Shown: piece by piece, positions 15,763 to 26,730 of the stretch
Position numbering within the stretch: position 1 is the first letter of the stretch
Layout: every line of letters starts with the position of its first letter
DNA from: an uncultured Ignavibacteria bacterium
GTDB lineage: Bacteria > Zixibacteria > MSB-5A5 > SM1-73
Reading direction: 5' to 3'
DNA: 32,722 nucleotides
Assembly: GCA_964588675.1 (NCBI GenBank)
Contig: CAZPRG010000003.1
Span: 1-32,722 of the forward strand
The notes under the pieces: generated by a model
What the model was told of the DNA's origin: nothing
The model's input: only the letters and a program-made list of their open reading frames with translations
Database searches by the model: none
Program-made: the position numbers and the translations under genes

Positions 15763-16554
15763 ATGAGAAGGAAGAAGCAGGATTTCGAGGATCTGGTCGG
15801 ATTGATGGCCCGGCTCAGGTCCAAAGACGGATGCCCCTGGGACCGGGAGCAAACCCACCAGTCGCTTCGACCCTATTTGATCGAAGAATCCTACGAGGTT
15901 TTAGATACCATCGAAGCCCGGGACCATCAAAGGTTGAAGGAGGAATTGGGGGATCTGCTTTTGCAGATCGTTTTTCACGCCCAGATAGCCCGGGAGAGCC
16001 GGGAATTCGACATATACCAGGTGATAGGATTTCTGGTGGGGAAACTGAAGGCCCGACATCCCCACGTTTTCGGAAAGAAGAAACGCGCCTCCAAAGAGGA
16101 GGTTCTGAGAAACTGGGAGCACATAAAGCTCACCACCGGCAGGGCTGGGGATAAAACGGTTCTCTCCGGCATACCCCGGCACCTGCCCGCCCTGCTGAAA
16201 GCTCATCGGGTTCAGGAGAAGGTGGCCCGCTTCGACTTCGATTGGGAGAGTGCCTCGGAGGTTTTCTCTAAAATCGAAGAGGAGATCGAGGAGTTGAAAA
16301 AGGCTCTAAGCCGGCGCAAGGCAAAACCCGACGAAATCGAAGAAGAGCTGGGCGATGTCCTTTTTTCCTGGGTGAATCTTTCCCGGCACCTCAAGGTCAA
16401 TCCCGAATTCGCCCTGCGAAGGACCATCGACAAGTTCGTCAGAAGGTTCAACTACTTGGAGAAAGAGCTCAGGCGAAGAAAGATCCCGCTGAAGGACGCC
16501 GGGCTGGCTCTGATGGACTCCCTGTGGGATGAGGCCAAAGAATCGGGCATCTGA
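15763..16554 (+). CDS. mazG: Nucleoside triphosphate pyrophosphohydrolase MazG (two MazG domains)
   Basis: Motifs are LRSKDGCPWDREQTHQSLRPYLIEESYEVLDTIE and EELGDLLLQIVFHAQIA in domain 1, and EELGDVLFSWVNLSRHL in domain 2. Confidence 0.92.
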   Translation: MRRKKQDFEDLVGLMARLRSKDGCPWDREQTHQSLRPYLIEESYEVLDTIEARDHQRLKEELGDLLLQIVFHAQIARESREFDIYQVIGFLVGKLKARHPHVFGKKKRASKEEVLRNWEHIKLTTGRAGDKTVLSGIPRHLPALLKAHRVQEKVARFDFDWESASEVFSKIEEEIEELKKALSRRKAKPDEIEEELGDVLFSWVNLSRHLKVNPEFALRRTIDKFVRRFNYLEKELRRRKIPLKDAGLALMDSLWDEAKESGI

Positions 16555-16784
16555 GGTATCCGCAGCCGAAGGGGAAAAAGACCGGCCGGTTCCCGCGTCA
16601 AAGCATGTCCTTTGGATCACAGGGGAGCCCCTTGGGCCGGTTAAAGGTCTGGTGAACAAAGCCGACAAGAATAGGGGTGGGTGTAGGGTACAGAAGGGGA
16701 TGGCCTGGTGCGGGGAGGGAGGATAATATCCATCCCAAGCCCGGACCGGAATAGGCCGGCAGCAGTTCCGGAGAGCATTATCCA

Positions 16785-16848
16785 GATTGGGGACGGTAGG
16801 CTCTGCCGAGGATCGGCGGGGTATACTCCTGAGCCCCAATCTTTTTTT
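16785..16848 (+). terminator. Terminator-like element (8-bp stem enclosing a 41-nt loop, then T7) in the leader of the fibre-like operon
   Basis: gattgggg (16785-16792) pairs with ccccaatc (16834-16841), and ttttttt (16842-16848) follows directly. It sits 230 nt after the mazG stop and 78 nt before the next start codon. Confidence 0.35.
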
Positions 16849-16926
16849 GTATCACTCCGGCAGCATGAGGCGCTCAACGGACGATTCATCGACCATTCGA
16901 AACCACTAACAAAAAGGGGGAGGAAA

Positions 16927-17415
16927 ATGAGGAAACTGACGACCGGCGTGGCTCTGGTGTGGCTGGCCTTCGGACTGGTGGGCCTGGCCCTGGCGGCCAA
17001 CACCGCCCAGCAGACGGTCACCTTTCAGGTCGACGCCATCAACGAGATCTCGGTGAGCGGAAACCCGGGAAACCTGGCGGTGAACACCGCCACCGCCGGC
17101 TCGCAGCCGGACCAGGACACGGACAACTCCACCAGCTGGGCCGTGACCACCAACGGAAGCAACAAGAAAATGACCGGGGACATCGACTCCAACATGCCTT
17201 CGGACGTCACCCTGGAGATAAGCCTGACGGCTCCCACGGGAGGCTCAGGCAGCGGCGACGTGTCTTTGTCCACCACAGCCGGGGACCTGGTCACTTCCAT
17301 TACCCAGGTGGCGGAAAGCGGTCTGGCCATAACCTACACTCTGTCCGCCACAGTCTCGGCCGGCACCGTGGCCCAGGATACCAGAACCGTGACCCTCACC
17401 CTGACGGACGGTTAG
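16927..17415 (+). CDS. Small secreted beta-rich protein, putative fibre/pilin-like subunit A
   Basis: The ATG is preceded by a strong SD (aaaaagggggaggaaaATG). The signal peptide is MRKLTTGVALVWLAFGLVGLALA/AN. The mature 139 aa are Thr/Ser/Gly/Asn-rich with no Cys. The N-terminal strand TVTFQVDAINEISV has alternating hydrophobic residues. The C-terminus is AGTVAQDTRTVTLTLTDG. Confidence 0.7.
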   Translation: MRKLTTGVALVWLAFGLVGLALAANTAQQTVTFQVDAINEISVSGNPGNLAVNTATAGSQPDQDTDNSTSWAVTTNGSNKKMTGDIDSNMPSDVTLEISLTAPTGGSGSGDVSLSTTAGDLVTSITQVAESGLAITYTLSATVSAGTVAQDTRTVTLTLTDG

Positions 17416-17442
17416 TACCGGAGAGACAAGGGCCAACCAACC

Positions 17443-17964
17443 ATGGGGCGGTCCGGCCTTGGGATCGCCCCGGATCTTACTCTAATGGGAAGAGCATTCG
17501 TTCTTATCGTTCCCTTCTTATTGTTGGGAATCAAAGCGCAAGCCATTGACCTATCCGCAGCCGGTGGTTGGAACCAGTCGGTGGACCAGTCGGACTTGGT
17601 TTCCGGCCCAGGCAGCGAACTGATCGAAGTCTACGAAAGCACCACCGGCGGCACGGTCGTAGACGTCTCCGGTTGCACCGGCGACTCCGACAACTGGCGC
17701 ATCGACGTGCGCCGGATCGACGACGGCGGCTGGCACGGGGATTTCGTCCTCTATCTGAAAAGAACTTCCGACGGCGACGGCAACGGTGTGGTTTGGGGAG
17801 GCTTAGCCTACGTGGAAGTCACCGAAACGGATACCGAGTTGTTCTCCGGGGCCGGAAACCGCAGCGGAATCGACCTGCAATACAAATTGACCGGAATGTC
17901 GACGGGCGTTTCGCCGGACGATTACAGCCAAACCATCATCTTCACCGTGGTGGATATTCCTTAG
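17443..17964 (+). CDS. Small secreted protein, putative fibre subunit B (SCPU/Csu-like sequence pattern)
   Basis: The signal peptide MGRAFVLIVPFLLLGIKAQA/ID suggests the true start may be the ATG at 17485. The pattern FVLYLKRTSDGDGNGVVWGG ... LQYKLTGMSTGVSPDDYSQTIIFTVVD recalls the spore-coat-protein-U type pilin signature. That signature is roughly Y-x-L-Y...WG...G-x-Y-S-D-T-V-T-V-T-V. Confidence 0.65.
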   Translation: MGRSGLGIAPDLTLMGRAFVLIVPFLLLGIKAQAIDLSAAGGWNQSVDQSDLVSGPGSELIEVYESTTGGTVVDVSGCTGDSDNWRIDVRRIDDGGWHGDFVLYLKRTSDGDGNGVVWGGLAYVEVTETDTELFSGAGNRSGIDLQYKLTGMSTGVSPDDYSQTIIFTVVDIP

Positions 17965-17973
17965 GGAGAGGCG

Positions 17974-18822
17974 ATGAGGAAGATTCTCTTTTTCTGTTTC
18001 CTTTTGGTCCTGTCTGCGGAGCTCTCCCGGGCCGGCGTGGTAGTGGTGGGAGGGCTGACCCAGGAGAAGAATCTCCTGTTGGGGGAGAAGATAGAGGGAA
18101 GCATCCAGTTGGAGAACAACGGAGCCACGCCTTGCCAAGTGCGCGTGTATCAGACCGACTACTCGTTTCGCGCCGACGGAAGCAATCTTTACGGCCAGCC
18201 GGGAACCGCAGCCCGCTCCAACGCCGGATGGTTCTCCGTCAGCCCCAACCGCCTGACCATCCCTCCTCACGAAAAAGCCTGGGTGTACTATTCCGGCCGG
18301 GTCCCGCCGGGCACGGAGTGGGCCTCGATTCAAAACGACCTCCAGGGGACGGAAGGCTCCTTTTTGTCAGGCAGCTACTGGAGCATGGTGATGATCGAGC
18401 CGCTGTCGGAGGCGGAGATGCAGACGGCAGAGGATCAGACGGGAAAGTTGAAAATGGGCATAGAAACCAAGGTTCGGTACGGCATACAGATCGTCACCAA
18501 CGTCGGTGATTCCGGAACACCCCGGATCAGGTTCCTGGACAAAAAACTGTTCACCCGAGAGGGCCGAACCACTCTGCAGATGGACATCGAGAATATCGGC
18601 CAGAGATGGTTTTCTCCCATTGTGTGGGTGGAGCTTTACGACGATCGGGGAACCCTGGCCGGCCGTTTCCAGGGCGATAAAAAGCGCATCTATCCCGGTT
18701 GCTCTGTGAGACATAAGGTGGATCTGACCGGCGTGGCTCCGGGGAAATACAAGGCTCTGGTGGTGGTGGACAACGGAGACCAATACGTCTTCGGCGCCAG
18801 GTACGATCTCGGAATCGAATGA
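17974..18822 (+). CDS. Secreted two-Ig-like-domain protein, putative periplasmic chaperone-like component
   Basis: The SD gggagagg lies 5 nt upstream, and the signal peptide is MRKILFFCFLLVLSAELSRA/GV. Two beta-sandwich-like halves are visible. The first is GSIQLENNGATPCQVRVYQTDY...WFSVSPNRLTIPPHEKAWVYYSGRVP. The second is LQMDIENIGQRWFSPIVWVELYD...APGKYKALVVVDNG. The stop overlaps the next start (ATGA at 18819-18822). Confidence 0.7.
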   Translation: MRKILFFCFLLVLSAELSRAGVVVVGGLTQEKNLLLGEKIEGSIQLENNGATPCQVRVYQTDYSFRADGSNLYGQPGTAARSNAGWFSVSPNRLTIPPHEKAWVYYSGRVPPGTEWASIQNDLQGTEGSFLSGSYWSMVMIEPLSEAEMQTAEDQTGKLKMGIETKVRYGIQIVTNVGDSGTPRIRFLDKKLFTREGRTTLQMDIENIGQRWFSPIVWVELYDDRGTLAGRFQGDKKRIYPGCSVRHKVDLTGVAPGKYKALVVVDNGDQYVFGARYDLGIE

Positions 18823-21635
18823 TGAAACCAACCTTTGTTCTCCTGGTTCTGCTCCCCGCTTTTTTCTCCCCGGCCGTTGCGCAAGATTCAACCGGTGTGG
18901 TGGACGTGAGGTCCAGCTCTCCCGAACTTCTCCAGGCCGATCCGGGAAGCATCGTCACCGCCAGTTTTCTGATCTGGGACCGATCAGGGAAGGAGGGGGA
19001 ATTTCGTGAGGAGCTGACGCTTCCGTCCGGCTGGCAAAAGGCGGTGGCCGACGAGCCGGTCTTGGCGCTGAAACCCGGCGAGTCTCAGGTTCGGGTGTTC
19101 GCATTCCTGGTTCCTCTCTGGGCCCAGGCGGGAACCTACCGGATTTATTATCACCTGCGCAGTCAAGAGGACCCAGGGACAACGACTGTCGACAGCGTGA
19201 TGGTGGAGGTTCTGCCGGTCACGGAGTTGAAGCTCTCGGTCCTCGACAAGCCTCCCCCGGCGATAGCGGGGGAGACCTACCAGATGAATCTGCTGGTGAC
19301 TAACCAGGGAAACTCCGAAGTCGAAGTCCGGCTGGGCGCGAAATCCAGCCCGGATTGGGCTCTTCGAATTGATCCGGACAGCATGAGGCTGGAAGCGGGC
19401 GAGTCGCGTCCGGCAACCGCCGAGGTTCGAACCGACCCCAGGCTGGGCAGAAAAACCACCCAGATCGTGCACCTGACGGCGCAAGGGAAAACCCCCACCG
19501 GCGGCATCGTCCGCAGCAAACAAGTAATCTCGGTGGAAGTCCTCCCGCAAGTCACGGCAGCGCCCGATCCTTATCTCAGATTGCCCGGCAAAGCCTGCCT
19601 GATTGCCGCCGGCCAGGACGGAAAAGCCGGCCTCCAGTTGGATGTCTCAGGATGGGGCGATTTGGACGAGGGTGGAAAACGCAAGGTGGATTTTCAGTTT
19701 CGCGGGCCGGACATTCAAGGGAAAAGCATGTGGGGGAAAAAAGACGAGCTTCGCTTGAGCTATCGGCAGGAACATCTCGAGCTGCACCTGGGCGATCGGG
19801 GATTCTCGCTTTCCCCTTTGACCCAGAGGTTCACTTACGGCAGAGGCGTGGAGGTCGACTTCCGCCAGGGACGGCTCCGAGGTGGGGCTTTGTACGTGAG
19901 GGACAGATGGGGTGAGCCCAGACCGGAATTGGCCGGAGGATATCTGGCTTATCGGGCGGGCGAGAAGATCGACCTCAAGGGGAACCTGCTCAGTAAAAGC
20001 CGGGATTCCACCCTTTCGGTGGAAGGATACGATCTGAGAATTTACAGCCTTGAAACCGAGCTAGATCTGGATCCCGGTATGAAACTGGACCTGGAATGCG
20101 GCTTGGGTGAGGGCCGAAGAGACGGCCAATCCAGCGGGCTGGCCGTCCGCCTGAATTTGGCCGGCCGGTTGTGGGACCGCGTCTGCTACTCATTGGAGAA
20201 TACCCACGCCTCACCCCGGTATTACGGATACTACAACGATGCCGATTACAACAGCGGATCGGTCAGCTTTGACGTCTGGCGGCGGCTGCGGGCCAACCTG
20301 TTTTACCGGAGCCACAGGAACAACCTGGACTCGGATTCCACCTTGGGTCCGGCCAACCGCGAGGAGTCGTACCAGGCCGGTTTCCGCTATTCGTTCCGGT
20401 CCGGGCCGGAGGTTTCCGCAGAATACAGAACCTTAGACCGGCGAGACGACGTGCTGCCTCCGGATTATCACTACCGGGAGAAAGCGGTGAGAGTGGGAGT
20501 GACCCAGACCTGGGGCAGGCTGCGGGTTAACGCACAGGTGGAGAGGGGCGAGTTTGAGGACAGGCTAACCTCCGCCAGAAACGACGATCTGGAGAGGTAT
20601 CACTTATATGCCTCCTTTCACCCCTCCTATAAGCAAAGTCTGAGCTTATATGTCAGAGTGGGGCACACCAGTTTCACCGGCACGCCGGAGAGGACCAAGA
20701 GCTTTGGCGCTTCCGGTTCCTGGCTGGTTTCGGGCGACTTGTCGTTGAGTCTGGACGTTCGAAGGGACGACTCCGGCTCCAGCCGGTGCGGCAACCGGCA
20801 GAGCCTCCTCTGCTCGGTGGGCTATACGTTTGCAAACGGACACGGCTTATCTTTGAGAAGCCAGTGGCTTCGGTACGATCAGACAAAGGAGAAGGATCTT
20901 TCGCTGTTGGCCTCCTACACGGTTCCTTTGAGAATCCCGGTAGGCAAAAGAAGGAGCATGGGAGTGTTGAAGGGCCAGGTTCTCGATTGGGAGGACCCCA
21001 AGCGGCCGCCCCTCTCCCGGGTCATCCTGAGTGCCGACGGGTTCACTGCGGTGACCGATGACCAAGGTGAGTTCGTCTTTCCTTCCCTTGCGCCGGGAAC
21101 CCATTATCTGCGCGTGGAGAGCAGCTCCATCGGACTTGATCGGGTCATCACGGCCAAACAGCCGGTGGCGGTGGAGGTGAGAGGGGGAAAAACCGCCGAG
21201 ATCGATATCGGGGTGGTGAGCTCCTGCACCATTTCGGGCAGGGTCCTGATCAGCCGGCCGGACTCCAACCGAAGCTCTGCAACTGTCGATTTCGCCGCCA
21301 AAGACAGTCTGTACATCGTCGGCTCAGGAGCGCCGGAATCCAGGACATCGGACCTGGCAGGTGAGGAAGGCTTGGCCAATGTCCTGGTGGAGATCAGGGA
21401 CCTACAGGAGGTTCTGCGCCAATTGACCGACCCGGAAGGAGGGTTCTCCTTCCAGGGCATCAGGCCGGGCGTGTGGACCCTCCGAGTTTACGATGATGGC
21501 CTTCCGCCCCAACATTATCTGGAACAAAACGAAGCACGGCTTGAGTTGAAACCGGGGGAGAAGTCGGAGACCACCATCAGGGTCCTGCCTCGCCTGCGGC
21601 CCATTCAGATCATTGAAGAAGGGGAATTGGATTAG
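18819..21635 (+). CDS. Large outer-membrane protein: two N-terminal Ig-like (CARDB/NEW3-like) domains, central beta-barrel, two C-terminal carboxypeptidase-regulatory-like Ig domains (usher-like layout)
   Basis: The signal peptide is MMKPTFVLLVLLPAFFSPAVA/QD. The repeated Ig-like modules show ...PGSIVTASFLIWDRSG...LKPGESQVRVFAFLVP...AGTYRIYY and ...AGETYQMNLLVTNQGNSEVEVRL...LEAGESRPATAEVR. About 430 aa of amphipathic, aromatic-rich strands follow (YSLENTHASPRYYGYYNDADYNSGSVSF, LLASYTVPLRI). The C-terminal modules read GQVLD...VTDDQGEFVFPSLAPGTHYL and SGRVL...LTDPEGGFSFQGIRPGVWTL. Confidence 0.75.
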   Translation: MMKPTFVLLVLLPAFFSPAVAQDSTGVVDVRSSSPELLQADPGSIVTASFLIWDRSGKEGEFREELTLPSGWQKAVADEPVLALKPGESQVRVFAFLVPLWAQAGTYRIYYHLRSQEDPGTTTVDSVMVEVLPVTELKLSVLDKPPPAIAGETYQMNLLVTNQGNSEVEVRLGAKSSPDWALRIDPDSMRLEAGESRPATAEVRTDPRLGRKTTQIVHLTAQGKTPTGGIVRSKQVISVEVLPQVTAAPDPYLRLPGKACLIAAGQDGKAGLQLDVSGWGDLDEGGKRKVDFQFRGPDIQGKSMWGKKDELRLSYRQEHLELHLGDRGFSLSPLTQRFTYGRGVEVDFRQGRLRGGALYVRDRWGEPRPELAGGYLAYRAGEKIDLKGNLLSKSRDSTLSVEGYDLRIYSLETELDLDPGMKLDLECGLGEGRRDGQSSGLAVRLNLAGRLWDRVCYSLENTHASPRYYGYYNDADYNSGSVSFDVWRRLRANLFYRSHRNNLDSDSTLGPANREESYQAGFRYSFRSGPEVSAEYRTLDRRDDVLPPDYHYREKAVRVGVTQTWGRLRVNAQVERGEFEDRLTSARNDDLERYHLYASFHPSYKQSLSLYVRVGHTSFTGTPERTKSFGASGSWLVSGDLSLSLDVRRDDSGSSRCGNRQSLLCSVGYTFANGHGLSLRSQWLRYDQTKEKDLSLLASYTVPLRIPVGKRRSMGVLKGQVLDWEDPKRPPLSRVILSADGFTAVTDDQGEFVFPSLAPGTHYLRVESSSIGLDRVITAKQPVAVEVRGGKTAEIDIGVVSSCTISGRVLISRPDSNRSSATVDFAAKDSLYIVGSGAPESRTSDLAGEEGLANVLVEIRDLQEVLRQLTDPEGGFSFQGIRPGVWTLRVYDDGLPPQHYLEQNEARLELKPGEKSETTIRVLPRLRPIQIIEEGELD

Positions 21636-22076
21636 CGCCTGAGGTCACGAAAAGACCGCCCGCCCGCTTTTCACTCCGCTGTTTCTTTGCAGCATCTTCC
21701 CACAAAGCACCACGTCGTGGTCCGACCAGGTCGAGGGTGAGTATCCTGGACAGAGGAAATGGGCGGAAAGCCCATGTCCCCAGAACCGATGTCGTGGTCG
21801 GGGAGGATTGGCCTCCCAACGGTTGGTGATCGGGAAGCGTATGGGAGTAAGGTCGAACGGGTCTGATGAATAATAGCTTGACAAAACCGATAGGTTATAT
21901 TAAGCTAAGAAGTTAGGGCTTGCAAGTGAGTCTCCCGAAGGGGAGTTCGACTGCAAGTCTTTGCACTCTTTGAGGAAACGAAACCGAACCGGGAAGTCGT
22001 GCGGCCGTATGTGGCGGCCCATCGGTGCCCCGCCTTCGCCCGAAACATGCAGGTGGATCACAAGGACAGAGAGGGA

Positions 22077-23327
22077 ATGAGCATCAGCGTTATGGCTGAG
22101 GACATCAAAAGGGTGGCTGCCGACGAGGGATTGACCCCGGAGTTCATCCGAGAGGGCGTAGATCGGGGTACCATCGTCATCCTGAGGAACAAACAGCATG
22201 CCTGGGCCAAGCCGGTAGGGGTGGGCAGAGGTCTGCGGACCAAGATCAACGTGAATCTGGGGAGCTCTCCGGACATGGTCGATTCCGACCTGGAGCTGGC
22301 CAAGGTGCGAATGGCGATGGAGCTGGGGGCCGATACGGTGATGGATTTGTCCACCGGCGGCGACATTCGAAGTCTCAGAATCTCGGTACTCAAGGAATCC
22401 CACATACCGGTGGGAACTGTGCCCATCTACGAGGCGGTCTGCAAGCTGGCCCAGGACGGAAAGTCGCCGGTCGATCTGACCAAAGATTCCCTTTTCTCGG
22501 TGATCCGGGATCATTTCGAATCGGGGGTGGATTTTCTGACCGTTCACTGCGGCCTGACCAGCCGGGCCCTTCCGGTGATCGAGCGAAGAAAGAGAACCAC
22601 CGGCATAGTCAGCCGGGGAGGGTCGTTTCTCCACAAGTGGATGAAGCATAACCGCCGGGAGAATCCCCTCTACGAACACTACGACGAGCTTCTGGACATG
22701 ACCCGGGAGTACCACGCCACTTTGAGTCTGGGCGACGGTCTGAGGCCGGGCAGCATAGCCGATTCCACCGACTCCTCCCAGGTGGAGGAGCTTTTGGTTC
22801 TGGGAGAGCTGGTGGACCGCGCCAGGGACAAAGGCGTGCAGGCCATGGTGGAAGGCCCCGGGCACATTCCCATACACGAGATCCCGGCCAACGTGCTTCT
22901 GGAGAAGAAACTGTGCCACGGCGCGCCTTTCTACGTACTGGGACCTCTGGTTACGGACAGCGCCCCGGCATACGATCACATAGTTTCGGCCATCGGCGGT
23001 GCCGTGGCGGCGTCCGCGGGCGCCGACTTCCTGTGTTACGTGACCCCCTCCGAACACCTGTGTCTCCCGGATATCGAAGACGTCAGACAGGGAATCATCG
23101 CCTCCAGGATCGCCGCCCATGCAGCGGACATCGCCAAGGGGATCGGGGGCGCCGAGAAGCAGGATCTTTTGATCTCGCAGGCCAGAAAGAATTTCGACTG
23201 GGAGAAAGTGATGAGCCTGAGCATGGACCCGGAGAGGGCCAGGAGGAAAAGGGGAAAGGTGGGATCGGATTCCCAGAAGTGCACCATGTGCGGCCAGTTC
23301 TGCGCCATGCGGGAGAATATGATCTGA
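22077..23327 (+). CDS. thiC: Phosphomethylpyrimidine synthase ThiC (short, anaerobe-type form)
   Basis: ThiC signature stretches include NVNLGSSPD, VMDLSTGGDI, VPIYEA, DFLTVHCG, LSLGDGLRPGSIADS, MVEGPGHIP, APFYVLGPLVTD and the C-terminal CTMCGQFCA cluster motif. I chose the ATG at 22077 because gagaggga lies upstream. The ORF-track start at 21999 adds a non-conserved extension. Confidence 0.93.
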   Translation: MSISVMAEDIKRVAADEGLTPEFIREGVDRGTIVILRNKQHAWAKPVGVGRGLRTKINVNLGSSPDMVDSDLELAKVRMAMELGADTVMDLSTGGDIRSLRISVLKESHIPVGTVPIYEAVCKLAQDGKSPVDLTKDSLFSVIRDHFESGVDFLTVHCGLTSRALPVIERRKRTTGIVSRGGSFLHKWMKHNRRENPLYEHYDELLDMTREYHATLSLGDGLRPGSIADSTDSSQVEELLVLGELVDRARDKGVQAMVEGPGHIPIHEIPANVLLEKKLCHGAPFYVLGPLVTDSAPAYDHIVSAIGGAVAASAGADFLCYVTPSEHLCLPDIEDVRQGIIASRIAAHAADIAKGIGGAEKQDLLISQARKNFDWEKVMSLSMDPERARRKRGKVGSDSQKCTMCGQFCAMRENMI

Positions 23328-23447
23328 CCACAGCCATGTCCGTCCCTGCTGCCATGCGGTTTGTTCCCATTCGCAGGCGGCGGACAAGATTGCAGACGTT
23401 TGAGATTCACGAACATTGAACGATTCAACCCCTCAACCAGGGAGGAG

Positions 23448-24083
23448 ATGATGAGAGATCGGCAGCGCTTCATCCGCCCGGCCTCACTGCTGGTGGGCGC
23501 TTTGGCCTGGATGATGATGTTTGCAGCTTTTGCCTCGGCAGAGAATGATCCCTTCGGCAAGCCGGATACCTGTCGGATCCTGGTGGACCAGGACCAGAAG
23601 ACCGGACAGGGGGTAATACACGTGTCGGTTTTCAACGACGAGGACCTGGCCGCCTTAACCCTGCCGTTCTCTTACGGCGACGGGGACAGTCCGGTGCGGT
23701 GCGATTCGGTGAGGTTCCGTAATACCCGAACGGAGTTCTTCGACATGAGGACCGCCAGCATCGACACGGTAGGCCAGACCGTGTTGATCGGACTTATCGC
23801 CGACATGACCGGAAAAAAGCCGCCTATGCCGAAGGGGGACGGAGAAGTAGCCGTCATCTACTTCACTTTTCCGGCCAACCAGCGGTTCCACGACTTCGTG
23901 ATGGATACCACCATGGTCAAGCCCTTCAACCTGCTCAAGTTCGTGACCCCGGACGTCAAGGCGGTGTATCCCGAGTTCGACAACTCTCAGGCTCTGATAA
24001 GGGGCGGAATCCCCATCCGCGCTCCGGAGAAGCCCAAGGAAGGAGAAAACCCGCCGGAAAAGAAGGCAGAGGAGAAAAGGTAA
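23448..24083 (+). CDS. Small secreted protein with cohesin-like beta-sandwich sequence pattern and Lys/Glu/Pro-rich tail
   Basis: The SD gggaggag sits directly before ATGATG at 23448. The signal or anchor is ASLLVGALAWMMMFAAFASA/EN. The pattern GQGVIHVSVFNDEDLAALTLPFSYGDG...TVGQTVLIGLIADMTGKKPPMPKGDGEVAVIYFTFPAN resembles a cohesin domain. The corresponding cohesin positions are G-x-V-x-V-x-V ... F-x-Y-D ... I-x-F-x-F ... DG-x-A-x-I-x-F. The C-terminal tail is RAPEKPKEGENPPEKKAEEKR. Confidence 0.65.
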   Translation: MMRDRQRFIRPASLLVGALAWMMMFAAFASAENDPFGKPDTCRILVDQDQKTGQGVIHVSVFNDEDLAALTLPFSYGDGDSPVRCDSVRFRNTRTEFFDMRTASIDTVGQTVLIGLIADMTGKKPPMPKGDGEVAVIYFTFPANQRFHDFVMDTTMVKPFNLLKFVTPDVKAVYPEFDNSQALIRGGIPIRAPEKPKEGENPPEKKAEEKR

Positions 24084-24412: not shown

Positions 24413-24561
24413 GGTTTATAGGATAGGAAAGGTCAAGGGTTCGCCCGATGGGCTGCTTGTCTTGCACCATGATCCGGCCTTCCGACAAAAACTTCACTGG
24501 TCTTCAAAATTTAAGTCATGTGACGATCGAGATCGATCCATAAAAGACACCGGAGGTGAAC

Positions 24562-26730
24562 GTGAAAGTCGCAAGAGTGTTGGTGGCGTGCTTGCTCTTG
24601 GTGGGGGTGTTTTCCATGGCCGCAGCTGCTTCTGACCAGAAGGTGATGCAGGTCAGGATTTATCCGGCAGACAAGTCCCAGGTGGAGGAGATATTGGGCC
24701 TGCGGCTGGACGTGGCCTATGTCAAGGCGGATGAATACATCGATATCATAACCGATCAGGAGGAGTTGGGCCGACTGCTTTCCAAGGGATTTGACGCCAA
24801 TATCGTCCACTCGGATTTGGTGGCCTTTTATCAGAGCAGGCTGGAGAAGGGAAAGGCCATGGGGGGGTACCACACGTACAGCGAGGTCATGGCTGCTCTG
24901 GATTCCATGCATGCGCTTCATCCCTCCATCACCACGGCCAAGATGGACATTGGGCACAGTTATGAGGATAGCGTAATCTGGGCCATCAAGATATCGGATA
25001 ACCCCACGGTGGACGAGGACGAGCCGGAGGTGTTTTTCAACTCCTTGATTCACGCTCGCGAGCCGGCAGGCATGGAAGTTCTGCTGTACTTTATGTGGTA
25101 CCTTCTGGACAACTACGGAACCGATCCGGTAGCCACCCATCTGGTCAACGACCGGGAGCTGTGGTTCGTTCCGGTGGTGAACCCGGAAGGATACTGCTAC
25201 AATGAATACCAACACCCAGGGGGCGGGGGGATGTGGCGGGCGAATCGGCGCGACTGCGGCGCAGACTACGGGGTGGACTTGAACAGGAACTGGAGCTACA
25301 TGTGGGGATACGACGACGAAGGCTCCAGTCCCTACTGCGGCGAGGAGACCTATCGAGGTACCGGCCCCTTCTCCGAGCCCACAACCCAGGCCATGAGAGA
25401 TTTCATCCTCAGCCATCACTTCGTCATGTGCCTGGACAATCACACCTGGGGCATGTGGCTGATCTATCCCTGGTGCTATGATCGTCTCTACACTCCGGAC
25501 CACAATCTTTTCGTGGCCATTACCGATTCCATGGCCGTTTTCAACGGGCACACGCCCGGCACGGCCTGGGAGACGGTCAACTACCCGGTCAACGGTGGAA
25601 GCGTTGATTGGGAATACGGAGAAGCCGGGATCATCGGCATCAGCCCGGAGATCGGCAACGAGAGTGACGGGTTTTGGCCTCCGCCATCCAGGATACTGCC
25701 CTTGTGCCAGCTGGAGCTGCCGGCCAATCTTCTATATGCGGAACTGGCGGACAACCCTCGCCGGATACTCCCGCCCAACGCACCTACACTGGCGGCCATT
25801 GATTCCGTCCCGGCCGACTACACCATCCGCTGGTCGCATCAAGACACTCTGAACCCCGCGGCAGCCTTCGAGCTGGTGGAGATGACGGGCTTTTCCAGAT
25901 CCACCTATGATGTGGAAAGCGGGTATCCGAGTTGGCAGTTGGATGGATTCACGGTCTCCGCCACCAGAAGTCACTCTCCCACCCACAGCTTTTATTCCGG
26001 CAAGGCAAACAATCTGAACAACAAGGTGACCTGCGCGTCCAGCATCAACGTTCAGCCGAACGACAGCCTCAAGATCTGGTGCTGGTACAACATCGAGGAA
26101 AACTGGGACTACGCTTACGTGGAGGTGTCCACCGACGGGGGCGCCAGTTTCTCTCCCATCCCGGGAAACATCACCACCACCTACAACCCCCACGGCTACA
26201 ACCAGGGGAACGGCATCACCGGTTCCTCCGGAGGAGCATGGGTAGAAGGTAAATTCAGCCTCAGCAGTTATATGGGGCAGCAGATTTATCTGCGCTTGCG
26301 TTACGCAACCGATGACTGGACCACCTATGATGGGTTCTATGCCGACGACATCTATCCGTTCGAGAGTTACGAATCCATCGTCTCCCTGTCCGATGCCATC
26401 CCCGACACGTTCTACCAGATCACCGGACAGGAGAACGGAACTTTCAGCTACAAGGTCAGGGCCGAGGACCAGCAGAATCAGTGGGGCGCCTGGAGCAACG
26501 TGGAGACGGCGGTGGTGTTCGAAGAGCAGTTCACCAGGGGAGATGCCAACGGGGACGGGACCATCACCCTAAGCGACGTGGTGTTTCTGATCAACTACCT
26601 GTACAAGAACGGACCGGTTCCCGACCCTCCGGCTGCCGGGGATGCCACCAGCGATGGTCAAACAGATTTGGCGGATGTGGTGTATTTACTTAACTATCTG
26701 TACAAAGGAGGTCCACCTCCCCAGAAATAG
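24562..26730 (+). CDS. Secreted M14 zinc carboxypeptidase with jelly-roll/FN3-like accessory region and C-terminal dockerin-type module
   Basis: I prefer the GTG at 24562 because GGAGG lies 5 nt upstream. The ORF-track start is the GTG at 24556. The signal peptide is KVARVLVACLLLVGVFSMAAAA. M14 motifs are NSLIHAREPAG (HxxE), WRANRR, GVDLNRNW, LDNHTWG, GGSVDWEY and ISPEIG. The dockerin module spans 26539-26727 (DANGDGTITLSDVVFLINYLYK and DATSDGQTDLADVVYLLNYLYK). Confidence 0.9.
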   Translation: MKVARVLVACLLLVGVFSMAAAASDQKVMQVRIYPADKSQVEEILGLRLDVAYVKADEYIDIITDQEELGRLLSKGFDANIVHSDLVAFYQSRLEKGKAMGGYHTYSEVMAALDSMHALHPSITTAKMDIGHSYEDSVIWAIKISDNPTVDEDEPEVFFNSLIHAREPAGMEVLLYFMWYLLDNYGTDPVATHLVNDRELWFVPVVNPEGYCYNEYQHPGGGGMWRANRRDCGADYGVDLNRNWSYMWGYDDEGSSPYCGEETYRGTGPFSEPTTQAMRDFILSHHFVMCLDNHTWGMWLIYPWCYDRLYTPDHNLFVAITDSMAVFNGHTPGTAWETVNYPVNGGSVDWEYGEAGIIGISPEIGNESDGFWPPPSRILPLCQLELPANLLYAELADNPRRILPPNAPTLAAIDSVPADYTIRWSHQDTLNPAAAFELVEMTGFSRSTYDVESGYPSWQLDGFTVSATRSHSPTHSFYSGKANNLNNKVTCASSINVQPNDSLKIWCWYNIEENWDYAYVEVSTDGGASFSPIPGNITTTYNPHGYNQGNGITGSSGGAWVEGKFSLSSYMGQQIYLRLRYATDDWTTYDGFYADDIYPFESYESIVSLSDAIPDTFYQITGQENGTFSYKVRAEDQQNQWGAWSNVETAVVFEEQFTRGDANGDGTITLSDVVFLINYLYKNGPVPDPPAAGDATSDGQTDLADVVYLLNYLYKGGPPPQK
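26539..26727 (+). other. Dockerin type-I-like double EF-hand module (domain within the M14 CDS)
   Basis: Two DxxxDGxxxxxD loops are each followed by the helix V(V/F)(F/Y)L(I/L)NYLYK and a Gly-Pro-rich spacer. This is the same module design as the C25 peptidase tail at 10186-10377. Confidence 0.75.

What the first reader, a model, noticed from the sequence alone, without database searches (positions are those of the whole stretch)
16927..21635. Four-gene operon of secreted proteins laid out like a non-canonical chaperone-usher / surface-fibre assembly system
Four consecutive same-strand genes each encode a protein with a clear signal peptide and no motif I can assign to a known family. They are two small Thr/Ser/Gly-rich all-beta proteins (162 and 173 aa), a 282-aa protein with two Ig-like halves, and a 938-aa protein with a central barrel-like region flanked by Ig-like domains. 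The order subunit, subunit, two-Ig-domain protein, large OM barrel mirrors chaperone-usher pilus loci, including archaic Csu/SCPU-type loci. It also partly mirrors the Gram-positive WxL/DUF916-DUF3324 surface loci. The last two genes overlap by ATGA (18819-18822), and gaps between the other genes are 10-28 nt, which fits one operon with fixed stoichiometry. I saw no canonical PapD or usher signature, so this would be either a very divergent member or an independent solution.
Basis: partly seen in the sequence, partly recalled or inferred. Interest (0 to 1): 0.82.

Follow-up and report, generated by a model that had tools for sequence, protein, structure and literature searches.

The report
Unrecognised chaperone-usher-like fibre assembly operon
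These four genes form a cassette conserved in more than 300 bacterial species from over ten phyla, and it looks like a previously undescribed relative of the chaperone-usher machines that build surface fibres, made from parts no sequence database recognises.

Summary
Four co-directional genes each carry a signal peptide: g1 16927-17415, g2 17443-17964, g3 17974-18822 and g4 18819-21635. g3 and g4 overlap by ATGA. Pfam and NCBIfam assign nothing to g1-g3.

- **Conservation.** The order g1(x1-7)-g2-g3-g4 recurs in almost every untruncated locus among 80 fetched, out of 323 GTDB species with a g3 relative. The flanking genes differ between loci.
- **g3.** It models confidently (pLDDT 86.6) as two beta-sandwich domains. 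Its best PDB matches are the Gram-positive WxL-interacting protein WxLIP (E 2e-14), then PapD-type pilus chaperones (E about 1e-9). Sequence homology to either is absent or marginal, and g3 has no membrane anchor.
- **g1 and g2.** They are paralogues. g1 carries a conserved 15-residue N-terminal extension that g2 lacks, as tip subunits do in donor-strand-exchange pili. A moderate g1 model (pLDDT 67.6) weakly matches mostly donor-strand fibre subunits.
- **g4.** It has two N-terminal Ig-like domains, a central region with about 26-30 amphipathic strands (similar in size to FimD or LptD), and two C-terminal Ig-like domains.

Best reading, with confidence about 0.55: a new chaperone-usher-like fibre assembly system. 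The barrel size and the strand exchange are inferred, not shown. I found no published description.

The parts
16916..16923 (+). Shine-Dalgarno sequence GGGGGAGG ahead of g1, the likely start of the operon
   Evidence: Read directly from the sequence. No sigma-70-like promoter was found in 16400-22100.
16927..17415 (+). g1: 162-aa secreted Thr/Ser/Gly-rich beta protein, the putative major polymerising subunit
   Evidence: - ORF; no Pfam or NCBIfam family.
- 449 homologues, all named hypothetical.
- Present in 1-7 copies per locus.
- AF2 model is all-beta, pLDDT 67.6.
- 18 of the top 24 Foldseek hits are donor-strand-complemented fibre subunits, at weak E-values of 2e-3 to 0.1.
16996..17040 (+). 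g1 N-terminal extension (mature residues 1-15, ANTAQQTVTFQVDAI), the putative donor strand
   Evidence: - Family consensus [AG][ND][TS]xxQTVT[FYI]xVxAI, with alternating hydrophobic residues.
- Residues 1-12 are unplaced in the AF2 monomer (pLDDT <50).
- Present in 98 of 100 non-adjacent subunit genes, and absent from the g2 paralogue.
17443..17964 (+). g2: 173-aa secreted paralogue of g1 (159 aa if it starts at 17485) that lacks the N-terminal extension, the putative tip or first-assembled subunit
   Evidence: - hhalign of the g1 family against the g2 family gives probability 96.9%, E 1.3e-10. Mature g2 'IDLSAAGG' aligns to g1 'NEISVSG'.
- 6 residues separate the AxA cleavage site from the conserved Gly in g2, against 21 in g1.
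- One copy sits immediately upstream of g3 in most loci.
17974..18822 (+). g3: 282-aa soluble periplasmic protein with two beta-sandwich domains, the putative chaperone
   Evidence: - AF2 pLDDT 86.6, pTM 0.78; domains at about aa 21-178 and 183-282.
- Foldseek: WxLIP 9i25_C/9i1y at E 2e-14, then the CU chaperones CfaA, YadV, CsuC, Caf1M and FimC at E 1e-9 to 1e-7.
- None of 85 family members has a C-terminal TM helix.
- 731 cluster representatives at E<=1e-30.
18819..21635 (+). g4: 938-aa outer-membrane protein, the putative usher-like translocon, translationally coupled to g3
   Evidence: - ATGA overlap with g3, conserved as a 4-nt overlap in 24 of 66 loci.
- 56 homologues, three of them named 'predicted porin' by JGI.
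18906..19538 (+). g4 N-terminal pair of Ig-like domains (about aa 30-240)
   Evidence: Pfam NPCBM_assoc at E 8.4e-10 (2 stretches); FixG_C, Cep192_D3 and Ig_VWA7 are weaker.
19581..20936 (+). g4 central amphipathic beta region (aa 255-706), the putative large transmembrane barrel
   Evidence: - Marginal Pfam Porin_4 match (26.7 bits against a 27 cutoff).
- 26-30 amphipathic 9-mers (28-31 on the family alignment).
- The same counter gives 24-30 for FimD barrel plus plug, 24-31 for LptD and 15-19 for OmpF.
- Not verified by a structure model.
20961..21608 (+). g4 C-terminal pair of transthyretin-like Ig domains (about aa 715-930), probably periplasmic
   Evidence: - Pfam CarboxypepD_reg at E 5e-12 (2 stretches), plus SdrD_B and SpaA.
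- Homologues insert peptidoglycan-binding modules in this region: SPOR in P0171, a SpoIID-like piece in P0138 and P0134.

Best explanation
The four genes encode a self-contained machine, energised only by protein folding, that builds a surface fibre. It is functionally analogous to chaperone-usher pili but made of families that sequence databases do not recognise.

Proposed steps:
1. All four proteins are exported by Sec.
2. g3, a soluble periplasmic protein with two Ig-like domains, captures the small subunits g1 and g2. It does this by donating a beta-strand that completes their beta-sandwich. WxLIP is predicted to do this for WxL, and PapD-type chaperones do it for pilins.
3. g3-subunit complexes dock on the periplasmic Ig-like domains of g4, an outer-membrane protein with a large central barrel.
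4. g2 has the acceptor fold but no N-terminal extension. It enters first and ends up at the distal tip.
5. Each incoming g1 inserts its conserved N-terminal extension (QTVT[F/Y]xVxAI) into the previous subunit and displaces g3. This is donor-strand exchange.
6. The growing polymer is extruded through the g4 barrel.

What is shown:
- gene order and its conservation;
- the g3 fold and its nearest structural neighbours;
- the paralogy of g1 and g2, and the presence or absence of the extension;
- the domain layout of g4.

What is inferred:
- strand complementation by g3;
- polymerisation of g1;
- the tip role of g2;
- barrel size and translocation through g4.
For: **Conserved cassette.**
- g1(x1-7)-g2-g3-g4 appears in almost all untruncated loci of 80 fetched: 34 are exactly g1-g2-g3-g4 and 11 are g1-g1-g2-g3-g4.
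- The flanks are unrelated, and no other gene family is conserved in the neighbourhood.
- The g3-g4 4-nt overlap is conserved in 24 of 66 loci.

**g3.**
- The AF2 model is confident (pLDDT 86.6).
- Its best PDB neighbours are WxLIP (E 1.9e-14, TM 0.51-0.56 across both domains), then CU chaperones of several classes: CfaA, YadV, CsuC, Caf1M, FimC, DraB and CupB2 (E 2e-9 to 1e-7, TMt 0.5-0.6).
- The WxLIP literature reports that a WxLIP strand is predicted to complete the WxL sandwich (PMC10599100).

**g1 and g2.**
- They are homologous (hhalign 96.9%).
- g1 has a 15-aa conserved amphipathic N-terminal segment. AF2 does not pack it into the monomer, and g2 lacks it (21 against 6 residues before the conserved Gly; n=102 and n=61).
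- 98 of 100 subunit genes not adjacent to g3 keep the extension.
- In 9 loci the g3-adjacent gene is g1-like by sequence, yet it still lacks the extension.
- The C-terminal strand TVTxTLTD is the most conserved block of g1, and the protein ends right after it.
- 18 of the top 24 Foldseek hits of the g1 model are donor-strand fibre subunits: CfaB, CanA, FimG/F/A, CsuA/B, AbpA and the CfaE pilin domain.

**g4.**
- It has a signal peptide, 2 Ig-like domains, a region with about 26-30 amphipathic strands (FimD/LptD-sized on the same counter) and 2 more Ig-like domains. This mirrors the usher layout of NTD, barrel, CTD1 and CTD2.
- SPOR and SpoIID-like inserts in the C-terminal region of some homologues place that end in the periplasm.

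**Host.** The window also encodes FadL and TolC-type outer-membrane proteins, so the host is diderm.
Against: - There is no sequence-level homology to any CU component. Pfam PapD_N/C, Usher, PapC_N/C and Fimbrial are all absent. hhalign gives 0.5% against FimC, 0.5% against FimD and 1.6% against FimA.
- The g1 model is only moderate (pLDDT 67.6, and the other four models score 44-55). Its Foldseek E-values are weak (none <=1e-3) and TM scores are 0.35-0.49.
- g4 was not modelled. The strand count comes from a crude amphipathicity counter, and no plug domain was identified.
- The 'g2 lacks the extension' statement depends on the hhalign register. Sequence-to-profile hmmalign put 19 of 74 g3-adjacent genes in another register.
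- No complex prediction could be run, so strand donation by g3 and strand exchange between g1 copies are untested.
- g3's best match is WxLIP, whose known partners are not reported to polymerise.
- There are no experimental data, and no cultured carrier was identified.
Confidence: 0.55

Rival explanations
1. This is a diderm counterpart of the Gram-positive WxL/WxLIP surface-display complex, and it does not polymerise. g3 (WxLIP-like) holds g1 and g2 as stable heterocomplexes. g4 replaces the WxLIP membrane helix as an outer-membrane anchor or exporter. The product is a surface-attached protein complex such as an adhesin or coat, not a fibre.
For: - The top three Foldseek hits of g3 are WxLIP, five orders of magnitude better in E-value than the CU chaperones.
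- 3 of 41 g3 relatives weakly touch Pfam WxLIP_PGBD (best E 0.014).
- 1 of 50 g2 relatives touches Pfam WxL at E 0.028.
- Typical WxL loci also hold two WxL proteins plus one WxLIP (PMC10599100).
- g1 and g2 have W/Y-x-[LIV] and C-terminal T-x-T-L-like motifs reminiscent of WxL. This is my own reading of the sequence, not a test.
Against: - No WxL chain appears among the top 50 Foldseek hits of g1, whereas fibre subunits dominate.
- The Pfam WxL and WxLIP hits are at noise level.
- g3 lacks the transmembrane helix present in virtually all WxLIPs (0 of 85).
- The conserved g1-specific N-terminal extension, the variable g1 copy number (1-7) and a single extension-less paralogue are hard to explain without polymerisation.
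Confidence: 0.2
2. g4 is a specialised porin or uptake channel. g1-g3 are periplasmic or surface accessory binding proteins for a substrate, forming a nutrient-acquisition module.
For: - Marginal Porin_4 match, and JGI names three homologues 'predicted porin'.
- CarboxypepD_reg domains are common at the N-termini of SusC-type transporters (general knowledge).
- The window is rich in secreted peptidases.
Against: - There is no TonB-dependent plug or receptor domain, and no transporter or catabolic genes are conserved next to the cassette.
- The Porin_4 matches fall in different registers in different homologues. In the window protein, residues 479-651 match model positions 144-306. In P0138, residues 591-702 match positions 183-292. 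That points to generic hairpin similarity.
- The g3 fold is chaperone/WxLIP-like, not a solute-binding fold.
- No ligand-binding family matches g1 or g2.
Confidence: 0.07
3. The cassette is an envelope-structural module that tethers the outer membrane to peptidoglycan, or anchors an S-layer-like coat. g1 and g2 form a two-dimensional coat or periplasmic scaffold rather than a fibre.
For: - SPOR and SpoIID-like peptidoglycan-binding modules occur in some g4 homologues.
- The cassette is found in phyla with unusual envelopes, such as Planctomycetota, Dictyoglomi, Atribacteria and diderm-type Bacillota.
- The g1 composition, rich in Thr/Ser/Gly, resembles surface-layer proteins (general knowledge).
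Against: - Peptidoglycan-binding modules are present only in a minority of homologues, and not in the window protein.
- The chaperone-like g3 and the asymmetry of the extension point to ordered linear assembly.
Confidence: 0.1

Closest known systems
Chaperone-usher pili (classical Fim/Pap, alternate CFA/I, archaic Csu/CupE)
   Same: - Compact operon holding several small secreted subunit paralogues, one periplasmic two-Ig-domain protein and one large outer-membrane barrel protein with flanking beta-sandwich domains.
- g3 matches CU chaperones at fold level.
- The g1 model weakly matches CfaB, FimG/F/A and CsuA/B.
- One class of subunit has an N-terminal extension, and a single extension-less paralogue exists, as for tip subunits.
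   Different: - No detectable sequence homology to PapD, usher or fimbrial families.
- g4's flanking domains are NPCBM_assoc/FixG_C-type and transthyretin-like, not PapC_N or PapC_C.
- No plug domain was identified.
- The extension-less subunit is a single domain with no lectin domain, and it is encoded just before the chaperone.
- The hosts are mostly uncultured non-proteobacterial phyla.
WxL / WxLIP (DUF916-DUF3324) surface loci of Gram-positive bacteria (PMC10599100; PDB 9i1y, 9i25)
   Same: - g3's best structural match, covering both domains (E 2e-14).
- The locus logic of small secreted beta proteins plus one two-Ig-domain partner.
[quoted passage not shown]
   Different: - g3 has no C-terminal transmembrane helix (0 of 85).
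- Pfam WxLIP and WxL matches are at noise level.
- g1 did not match a WxL structure.
- The cassette always includes a large outer-membrane barrel protein and occurs in a diderm context.
Pam pili of Candidate Phyla Radiation bacteria (bioRxiv 10.64898/2026.03.03.709456)
   Same: A recently described chaperone-usher-like donor-strand pilus outside Proteobacteria. It has PapD-like chaperones, several pilin paralogues and a single-domain tip pilin (PamT) that lacks the linker strand. That parallels g2.
   Different: - Pam chaperones are membrane-anchored by a C-terminal helix, and there is no outer-membrane component.
- The authors report Pam pilins as exclusive to CPR.
- The pilins have two domains.
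Chaperone-free donor-strand fibres (TasA, archaeal bundling pili AbpA, Pyrodictium cannulae CanA, TLP-1)
   Same: The g1 model's weak structural neighbours include CanA, AbpA, Hyper2 and TLP-1b. All of these polymerise by donating an N-terminal strand.
   Different: Those systems have no dedicated two-domain chaperone and no outer-membrane barrel gene. There is no sequence similarity to them.

Membership tests
Chaperone-usher pathway (PapD/PapC superfamilies) | Periplasmic chaperone with the PapD_N/PapD_C sequence signature (PF00345/PF02753) | tested here: not met
   - No Pfam hit for g3.
- None among 41 relatives at E<=1.
- hhalign of the g3 family against FimC gives probability 0.5%.
- The PDB profile search is empty.
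Chaperone-usher pathway (PapD/PapC superfamilies) | Chaperone fold: two Ig-like domains | tested here: met
   The AF2 model has pLDDT 86.6. Foldseek hits CfaA, YadV, CsuC, Caf1M, FimC, DraB and CupB2 at E 2e-9 to 1e-7, probability 1.0, TMt 0.5-0.6. WxLIP scores better.
Chaperone-usher pathway (PapD/PapC superfamilies) | Usher sequence family (PF00577 Usher, PF13954 PapC_N, PF13953 PapC_C) | tested here: not met
   - No such Pfam hits in g4 or in five homologues.
- hhalign of the g4 family against FimD gives probability 0.5%.
- The PDB profile search finds no usher.
Chaperone-usher pathway (PapD/PapC superfamilies) | 24-stranded outer-membrane barrel with an internal plug, flanked by periplasmic N- and C-terminal domains | tested here: inconclusive
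   - The amphipathic-strand counter gives 26-30 segments in aa 255-706. On the same counter FimD barrel plus plug gives 24-30, LptD 24-31 and OmpF 15-19.
- Flanking Ig-like domains are present.
- No structure model of g4 was made and no plug was identified.
Chaperone-usher pathway (PapD/PapC superfamilies) | Subunits with an incomplete Ig fold and an N-terminal donor strand, plus a tip subunit that lacks it | tested here: inconclusive
   - A conserved 15-aa extension in g1 is unplaced by AF2.
- It is absent from the paralogue g2.
- Fold matches to pilins are weak.
- Groove and strand exchange could not be tested, because no multimer prediction was available.
WxL / WxLIP loci | WxLIP fold (DUF916 plus DUF3324 beta-sandwiches) | tested here: met
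   Foldseek top hits are 9i25_C, 9i1y_B and 9i1y_A at E 1.9e-14 to 1.7e-13, with 279-280 aligned columns.
WxL / WxLIP loci | Pfam WxLIP_PGBD (PF06030) / DUF3324 sequence membership | tested here: not met
   - There is no hit for g3.
- Only 3 of 41 relatives touch PF06030, with a best E of 0.014.
- DUF3324 is not among the 25 families listed for the 41 relatives.
WxL / WxLIP loci | C-terminal transmembrane helix on the WxLIP protein | tested here: not met
   None of 85 g3-family ORFs has a hydrophobic C-terminal stretch. The proteins end right after the last strand, for example ...YDLGIE.
WxL / WxLIP loci | Partner proteins carrying a WxL domain (PF13731) | tested here: not met
   - No Pfam WxL hit in g1 or g2.
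- 0 of 56 g1 relatives and 1 of 50 g2 relatives (E 0.028) hit WxL.
- No WxL chain appears in the top 50 Foldseek hits of g1.
CPR Pam pili | Membrane-anchored PapD-like chaperones, no outer-membrane component, CPR-restricted two-domain pilins | tested here: not met
   g3 is not anchored. A g4 barrel protein is always present. The hosts are not CPR. This comparison uses the paper's description only.

The most novel reading that the evidence does not exclude
The cassette may be a third, ancient and very widespread lineage of chaperone-assisted donor-strand fibre machinery. Its chaperone would be the soluble diderm sister of Gram-positive WxLIP. Its 'usher' would be an independently recruited large barrel with Ig-like domains on both sides.

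If so, it would link WxL/WxLIP surface complexes, CPR Pam pili and proteobacterial chaperone-usher pili into one evolutionary series. It would also imply that strand-complementing two-Ig-domain chaperones predate the split between single- and double-membrane envelopes. The fibres it makes would be a major uncharacterised class of appendage in environmental bacteria, including Zixibacteria, Planctomycetota, Verrucomicrobiota, Armatimonadota, Desulfobacterota and diderm Bacillota.
Probability: 0.35. Interest if true: 0.9.

Novelty: new variant of a known kind. Interest (0 to 1): 0.8.

Why it matters
Chaperone-usher pili are textbook machines known almost only from Proteobacteria and a few other groups. 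They are recognised through the PapD and usher sequence families.

This cassette has the same logic, but none of its parts is detected by Pfam or NCBIfam as a CU or WxL family. Yet a g3 relative is encoded in 323 GTDB species representatives. The g3 profile finds 731 (E<=1e-30) to 5454 (E<=1e-3) cluster representatives among 1.84 billion.

If it builds fibres, a common class of surface appendage of uncultured sediment, soil and groundwater bacteria has gone unannotated.

The g3-WxLIP fold link also gives a concrete way to ask two open questions:
- how the poorly understood Gram-positive WxL loci work;
- whether they share ancestry with pilus chaperones.

Practically, the four families deserve profile models so that genome annotation stops calling them 'hypothetical'.

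Tried and rejected
**Sequence family searches**
- Pfam and NCBIfam on the four proteins gave nothing for g1-g3.
- Pfam on every member of the g3, g1 and g2 alignments gave only noise-level hits.

**PDB sequence-profile searches**
- The g3, g1 and g2 profiles returned nothing relevant.
- The g4 profile returned only Ig-domain hits such as NOMO2.

**Direct comparison with E. coli Fim proteins**
- hhalign of the g3, g4 and g1 families against FimC, FimD and FimA gave probabilities of 0.5-1.6%.
- Classical CU membership by sequence is therefore rejected.

**Strand prediction on g4**
- A Chou-Fasman-type predictor was uninformative for a barrel.
- I replaced it with an amphipathic 9-mer counter calibrated on FimD, LptD and OmpF.

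**Alignment register of g2**
- hmmalign of g2 sequences to the g1 HMM put 19 of 74 g3-adjacent genes in a different register.
- I therefore relied on the profile-profile register and on family-specific distances.

**Other conserved genes**
- A neighbourhood search found only antisense shadow ORFs and generic response regulators.

**Promoter, terminator and RNA scans**
- The promoter and terminator scan showed nothing above shuffles.
- Rfam found no hits in the window or upstream of thiC.

**Names and literature**
- Cluster look-up of 10 representatives returned only 'hypothetical protein'.
- Eight literature searches found no description of this cassette.
- The cyanobacterial CT pilus and the TLP-1 fibrils were considered and set aside as different systems.

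- Only two structure jobs were allowed. I spent them on g3 and g1, so g4 and g2 were not modelled.

Full report
**1. The observation**

ORF listing shows four consecutive + strand ORFs:
- g1, 16927-17415, 162 aa
- g2, 17443-17964, 173 aa
- g3, 17974-18822, 282 aa
- g4, 18819-21635, 938 aa

Start sites and spacing:
- g1 and g3 have strong Shine-Dalgarno sequences.
- The g3 stop and g4 start overlap as ATGA at 18819-18822.
- The other gaps are 27 and 9 nt.
- The g2 start could instead be the in-frame ATG at 17485.

All four N-termini read as Sec signal peptides with Ala-x-Ala-type sites. This is from reading the sequence; no predictor was available.

The flanking genes are unrelated housekeeping genes (MazG upstream, ThiC downstream). 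The window also encodes FadL-type and TolC-type outer-membrane proteins, so the host has an outer membrane.

Pfam and NCBIfam assign nothing to g1-g3. For g4 they find only Ig-like domains plus a marginal porin match.

**2. It is a conserved cassette, not a chance arrangement**

- g3 has 213 relatives in the 90%-clustered protein collection, essentially all named 'hypothetical'.
- g4 has 56 relatives and g1 has 449.
- A profile scan of one genome per GTDB species found 323 stretches encoding a g3 relative (80 distinct loci kept). The record labels span Zixibacteria, Desulfobacterota/'Deltaproteobacteria', Nitrospirae, Armatimonadota, Planctomycetota, Verrucomicrobiota, Krumholzibacteriota, Riflebacteria, Dictyoglomaceae, Atribacteria, Acetomicrobium, Bacteroidota, Bacillota/Clostridia MAGs, Thiodiazotropha and Bacteriovoracaceae.
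- I called ORFs in the 80 fetched loci and ran iterative HMM searches with the four window proteins. The order g1(x1-7)-g2-g3-g4 holds in almost every locus not cut by a contig end. 34 loci are exactly g1-g2-g3-g4 and 11 are g1-g1-g2-g3-g4. One locus has seven tandem g1 copies.
- Independent gene calls in a complete Zixibacteria genome and in a Firmicutes MAG show the same layout with different flanks.
- All-against-all clustering of neighbourhood ORFs found no fifth conserved family.
- The 4-nt g3/g4 overlap recurs in 24 of 66 loci.
- An exhaustive profile search of 1.84 billion cluster representatives found 731 g3-like proteins at E<=1e-30, 1869 at E<=1e-10 and 5454 at E<=1e-3.

**3. g3 is a chaperone/WxLIP-like two-domain protein**

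With a 41-sequence alignment, AlphaFold2 gives a confident model: pLDDT 86.6, pTM 0.78. It has two all-beta domains at about aa 21-178 and 183-282. A disordered loop lies at 116-128, and a lower-confidence hairpin lies at about 145-165.

Foldseek against the PDB:
- Ranks 1-3 are the WxL-interacting protein of Enterococcus faecium (9i25_C, 9i1y; E 1.9e-14 to 1.7e-13; about 280 aligned columns; TM 0.50-0.56).
- Further down are periplasmic pilus chaperones of several chaperone-usher classes: CfaA, YadV, CsuC, CupB2, FimC, Caf1M and DraB (E 2e-9 to 1e-7; target-normalised TM 0.5-0.6).

At sequence level the link is absent or marginal:
- 3 of 41 relatives touch Pfam WxLIP_PGBD (best E 0.014), and none touches PapD.
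- A PDB profile search is empty.
- hhalign against FimC gives 0.5%.

Unlike WxLIP, none of 85 g3-family proteins has a C-terminal membrane helix.

The WxLIP literature reports that a WxLIP hairpin is predicted to become a strand that fills a gap in the WxL beta-sandwich (PMC10599100). This is the same principle as donor-strand complementation by PapD-type chaperones.

**4. g1 and g2 are paralogous subunits that differ by an N-terminal extension**

- Family alignments compared profile against profile give 96.9% probability and E 1.3e-10. Mature g2 'IDLSAAGG...' aligns to g1 'NEISVSG...', and the AGS motifs coincide.
- In that register g1 has 15 extra residues after its signal-peptidase site. 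The family consensus is [AG][ND][TS]xxQTVT[FYI]xVxAI, with alternating hydrophobic residues.
- 21 residues (10th-90th percentile 21-22, n=102) lie between the cleavage site and the conserved Gly in g1. The figure is 6 (6-7, n=61) in g2.
- 98 of 100 subunit genes not adjacent to g3 keep the extension.
- In nine loci the g3-adjacent gene is g1-like by sequence, yet it still lacks the extension.
- Caveat: sequence-to-profile alignment put 19 of 74 g3-adjacent genes in another register. The statement therefore rests on the profile-profile alignment.
- Because a paralogue with the same fold lacks the segment, it is an appendage rather than a core strand.
- AlphaFold2 of mature g1 gave a moderate model: best pLDDT 67.6, with the other four models at 44-55. 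It was built on a 63-sequence but shallow alignment. Residues 1-12 are unplaced (pLDDT <50).
- The C-terminal strand TVTxTLTD is the most conserved block, and the protein ends right after it.
- Foldseek hits of this model are weak (E 2e-3 to 0.1, TM 0.35-0.49), but 18 of the top 24 are subunits of donor-strand-complemented fibres: CfaB, CanA, FimG/F/A, CsuA/B, AbpA, Hyper2, the CfaE pilin domain and TLP-1b. No WxL chain is in the top 50.
- Sequence searches against Pfam and PDB find nothing, and hhalign against FimA gives 1.6%.

**5. g4 is a large outer-membrane protein with an usher-like layout**

- Pfam finds NPCBM_assoc/FixG_C-type Ig-like domains in about aa 30-240. It finds a marginal Porin_4 match at 479-651 (26.7 bits, cutoff 27). 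It also finds two CarboxypepD_reg (transthyretin-like) domains in about aa 715-930.
- The porin match falls in a different register in a homologue. I therefore read it as generic hairpin similarity.
The true strand numbers are from the literature (my knowledge):

| Region | Count | True strand number |
|---|---|---|
| OmpF | 15-19 | 16 |
| FimD barrel plus plug | 24-30 | 24 plus about 6 |
| LptD barrel | 24-31 | 26 |
| g4 aa 255-706, single sequence | 26-30 | not known |
| g4 aa 255-706, 42-sequence alignment | 28-31 | not known |

- This points to a barrel in the usher/LptD size class rather than a 16-strand porin. It is an estimate, not a structure.
- Some homologues carry peptidoglycan-binding modules (SPOR, a SpoIID-like piece) in the C-terminal region. 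That places this end in the periplasm.
- hhalign against FimD gives 0.5%, and the PDB profile search finds no usher.

**6. Most likely mechanism**

Confidence is about 0.55. The steps are:
1. Sec exports all four proteins.
2. g3 captures g1 and g2 by beta-strand complementation.
3. The complexes dock on the periplasmic Ig-like domains of g4.
4. The extension-less g2 goes first and becomes the tip.
5. g1 subunits polymerise by inserting their N-terminal extension into the preceding subunit and releasing g3.
6. The fibre is extruded through the g4 barrel.

Shown: cassette conservation, the g3 fold, g1/g2 paralogy, the extension asymmetry and the g4 domain layout. Inferred: strand donation, polymerisation, the tip role, barrel size and translocation.

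**7. Comparison with what is known**

- The cassette works like a chaperone-usher pathway. It fails the sequence-membership tests for PapD, usher and fimbrial families, so I do not file it as a member.
- Its chaperone is structurally closest to WxLIP. The locus nevertheless fails WxL membership: no transmembrane helix, no WxL domain, and an outer-membrane barrel is always present.
- A 2026 preprint describes chaperone-usher-like Pam pili in CPR bacteria. These have membrane-anchored PapD-like chaperones and a single-domain tip pilin that lacks the linker strand. The logic is parallel, but there is no outer-membrane component and the authors report it as CPR-restricted.
- Chaperone-free donor-strand fibres (TasA, AbpA, CanA, TLP-1) are weak structural neighbours of g1, but they have no chaperone or barrel genes.
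- Eight literature searches found no description of this cassette. The library lacks most subscription-journal papers, so this is not proof of absence.

**8. Rival explanations**

- A non-polymerising, diderm version of the WxL/WxLIP display complex (0.2). It is favoured by the WxLIP top hits. It is disfavoured by the extension asymmetry, the variable g1 copy number and the pilin-like g1 hits.
- A porin or uptake module (0.07). There is no plug or transporter context, and g3 is not a binding-protein fold.
- An envelope tether or coat (0.1). Peptidoglycan-binding modules occur only in a minority of homologues.

**9. Verdict**

I rate this a new variant of a known kind: a chaperone-usher-type, donor-strand fibre assembly system.

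It is widespread and unannotated, and it has a plausible evolutionary bridge to WxL loci. The main gaps are the lack of a g4 model, the moderate g1 model, the absence of any multimer prediction and the absence of experiments.

Noticed in passing
window 10183-12423 (-) and 24556-26730 (+); also L001 15954-16849: Two secreted peptidases carry C-terminal type I dockerin domains. One is a C25 gingipain-like peptidase with its propeptide. The other is an M14 carboxypeptidase with an InhA-like MAM domain. A dockerin-bearing FG-GAP protein sits near the cassette in the complete Zixibacteria genome. Together they suggest a cohesin-dockerin surface assembly of proteases in this lineage.
   Followed up: no
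window 23361-24083 (+): A 240-aa ORF with a signal-peptide-like N-terminus and no Pfam family. It lies between thiC and the dockerin-bearing M14 peptidase. It could be a cohesin-like partner, but I did not test this.
   Followed up: no
window 21636-21998: The roughly 360-nt region upstream of thiC has no Rfam match, even at E<=1. A TPP riboswitch is commonly found there.
   Followed up: partly
L016 5131-6504, L048 3949-5316, L054 3896-5269, L055 2622-3986, L070 1314-2693, L071 3927-5291: In several Desulfobacterota/Nitrospirae-labelled loci and one Thiodiazotropha-labelled locus, an ORF of about 455 aa lies a few hundred bases upstream of the first g1 gene. By reading the L016 sequence it looks like an NtrC-type response regulator with a sigma-54-interaction domain. 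No domain search was run on it. This hints at lineage-specific sigma-54 control of the cassette.
   Followed up: no
L050 1122-5505: One Armatimonadetes-labelled locus carries seven tandem g1 paralogues before g2-g3. This is the extreme of a copy-number range of 1-7.
   Followed up: no
P0171 aa 974-1045; P0138 and P0134 aa 947-991: Some g4 homologues of about 1080-1100 aa carry peptidoglycan-binding modules in the C-terminal region. These are SPOR, and an N-terminal piece of SpoIID.
   Followed up: partly
L007 10227-11144 (-): A second, divergent g3-like gene (305 aa) lies on the opposite strand about 2.4 kb downstream of the cassette in one Zixibacteria locus.
   Followed up: no
window 7389-9827 (-): An 812-aa protein with CBM9 plus DUF5916 (E 1.4e-90) and a C-terminus ending in aromatic residues (...INYWWSI). 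It is probably another large outer-membrane protein of unknown function.
   Followed up: no
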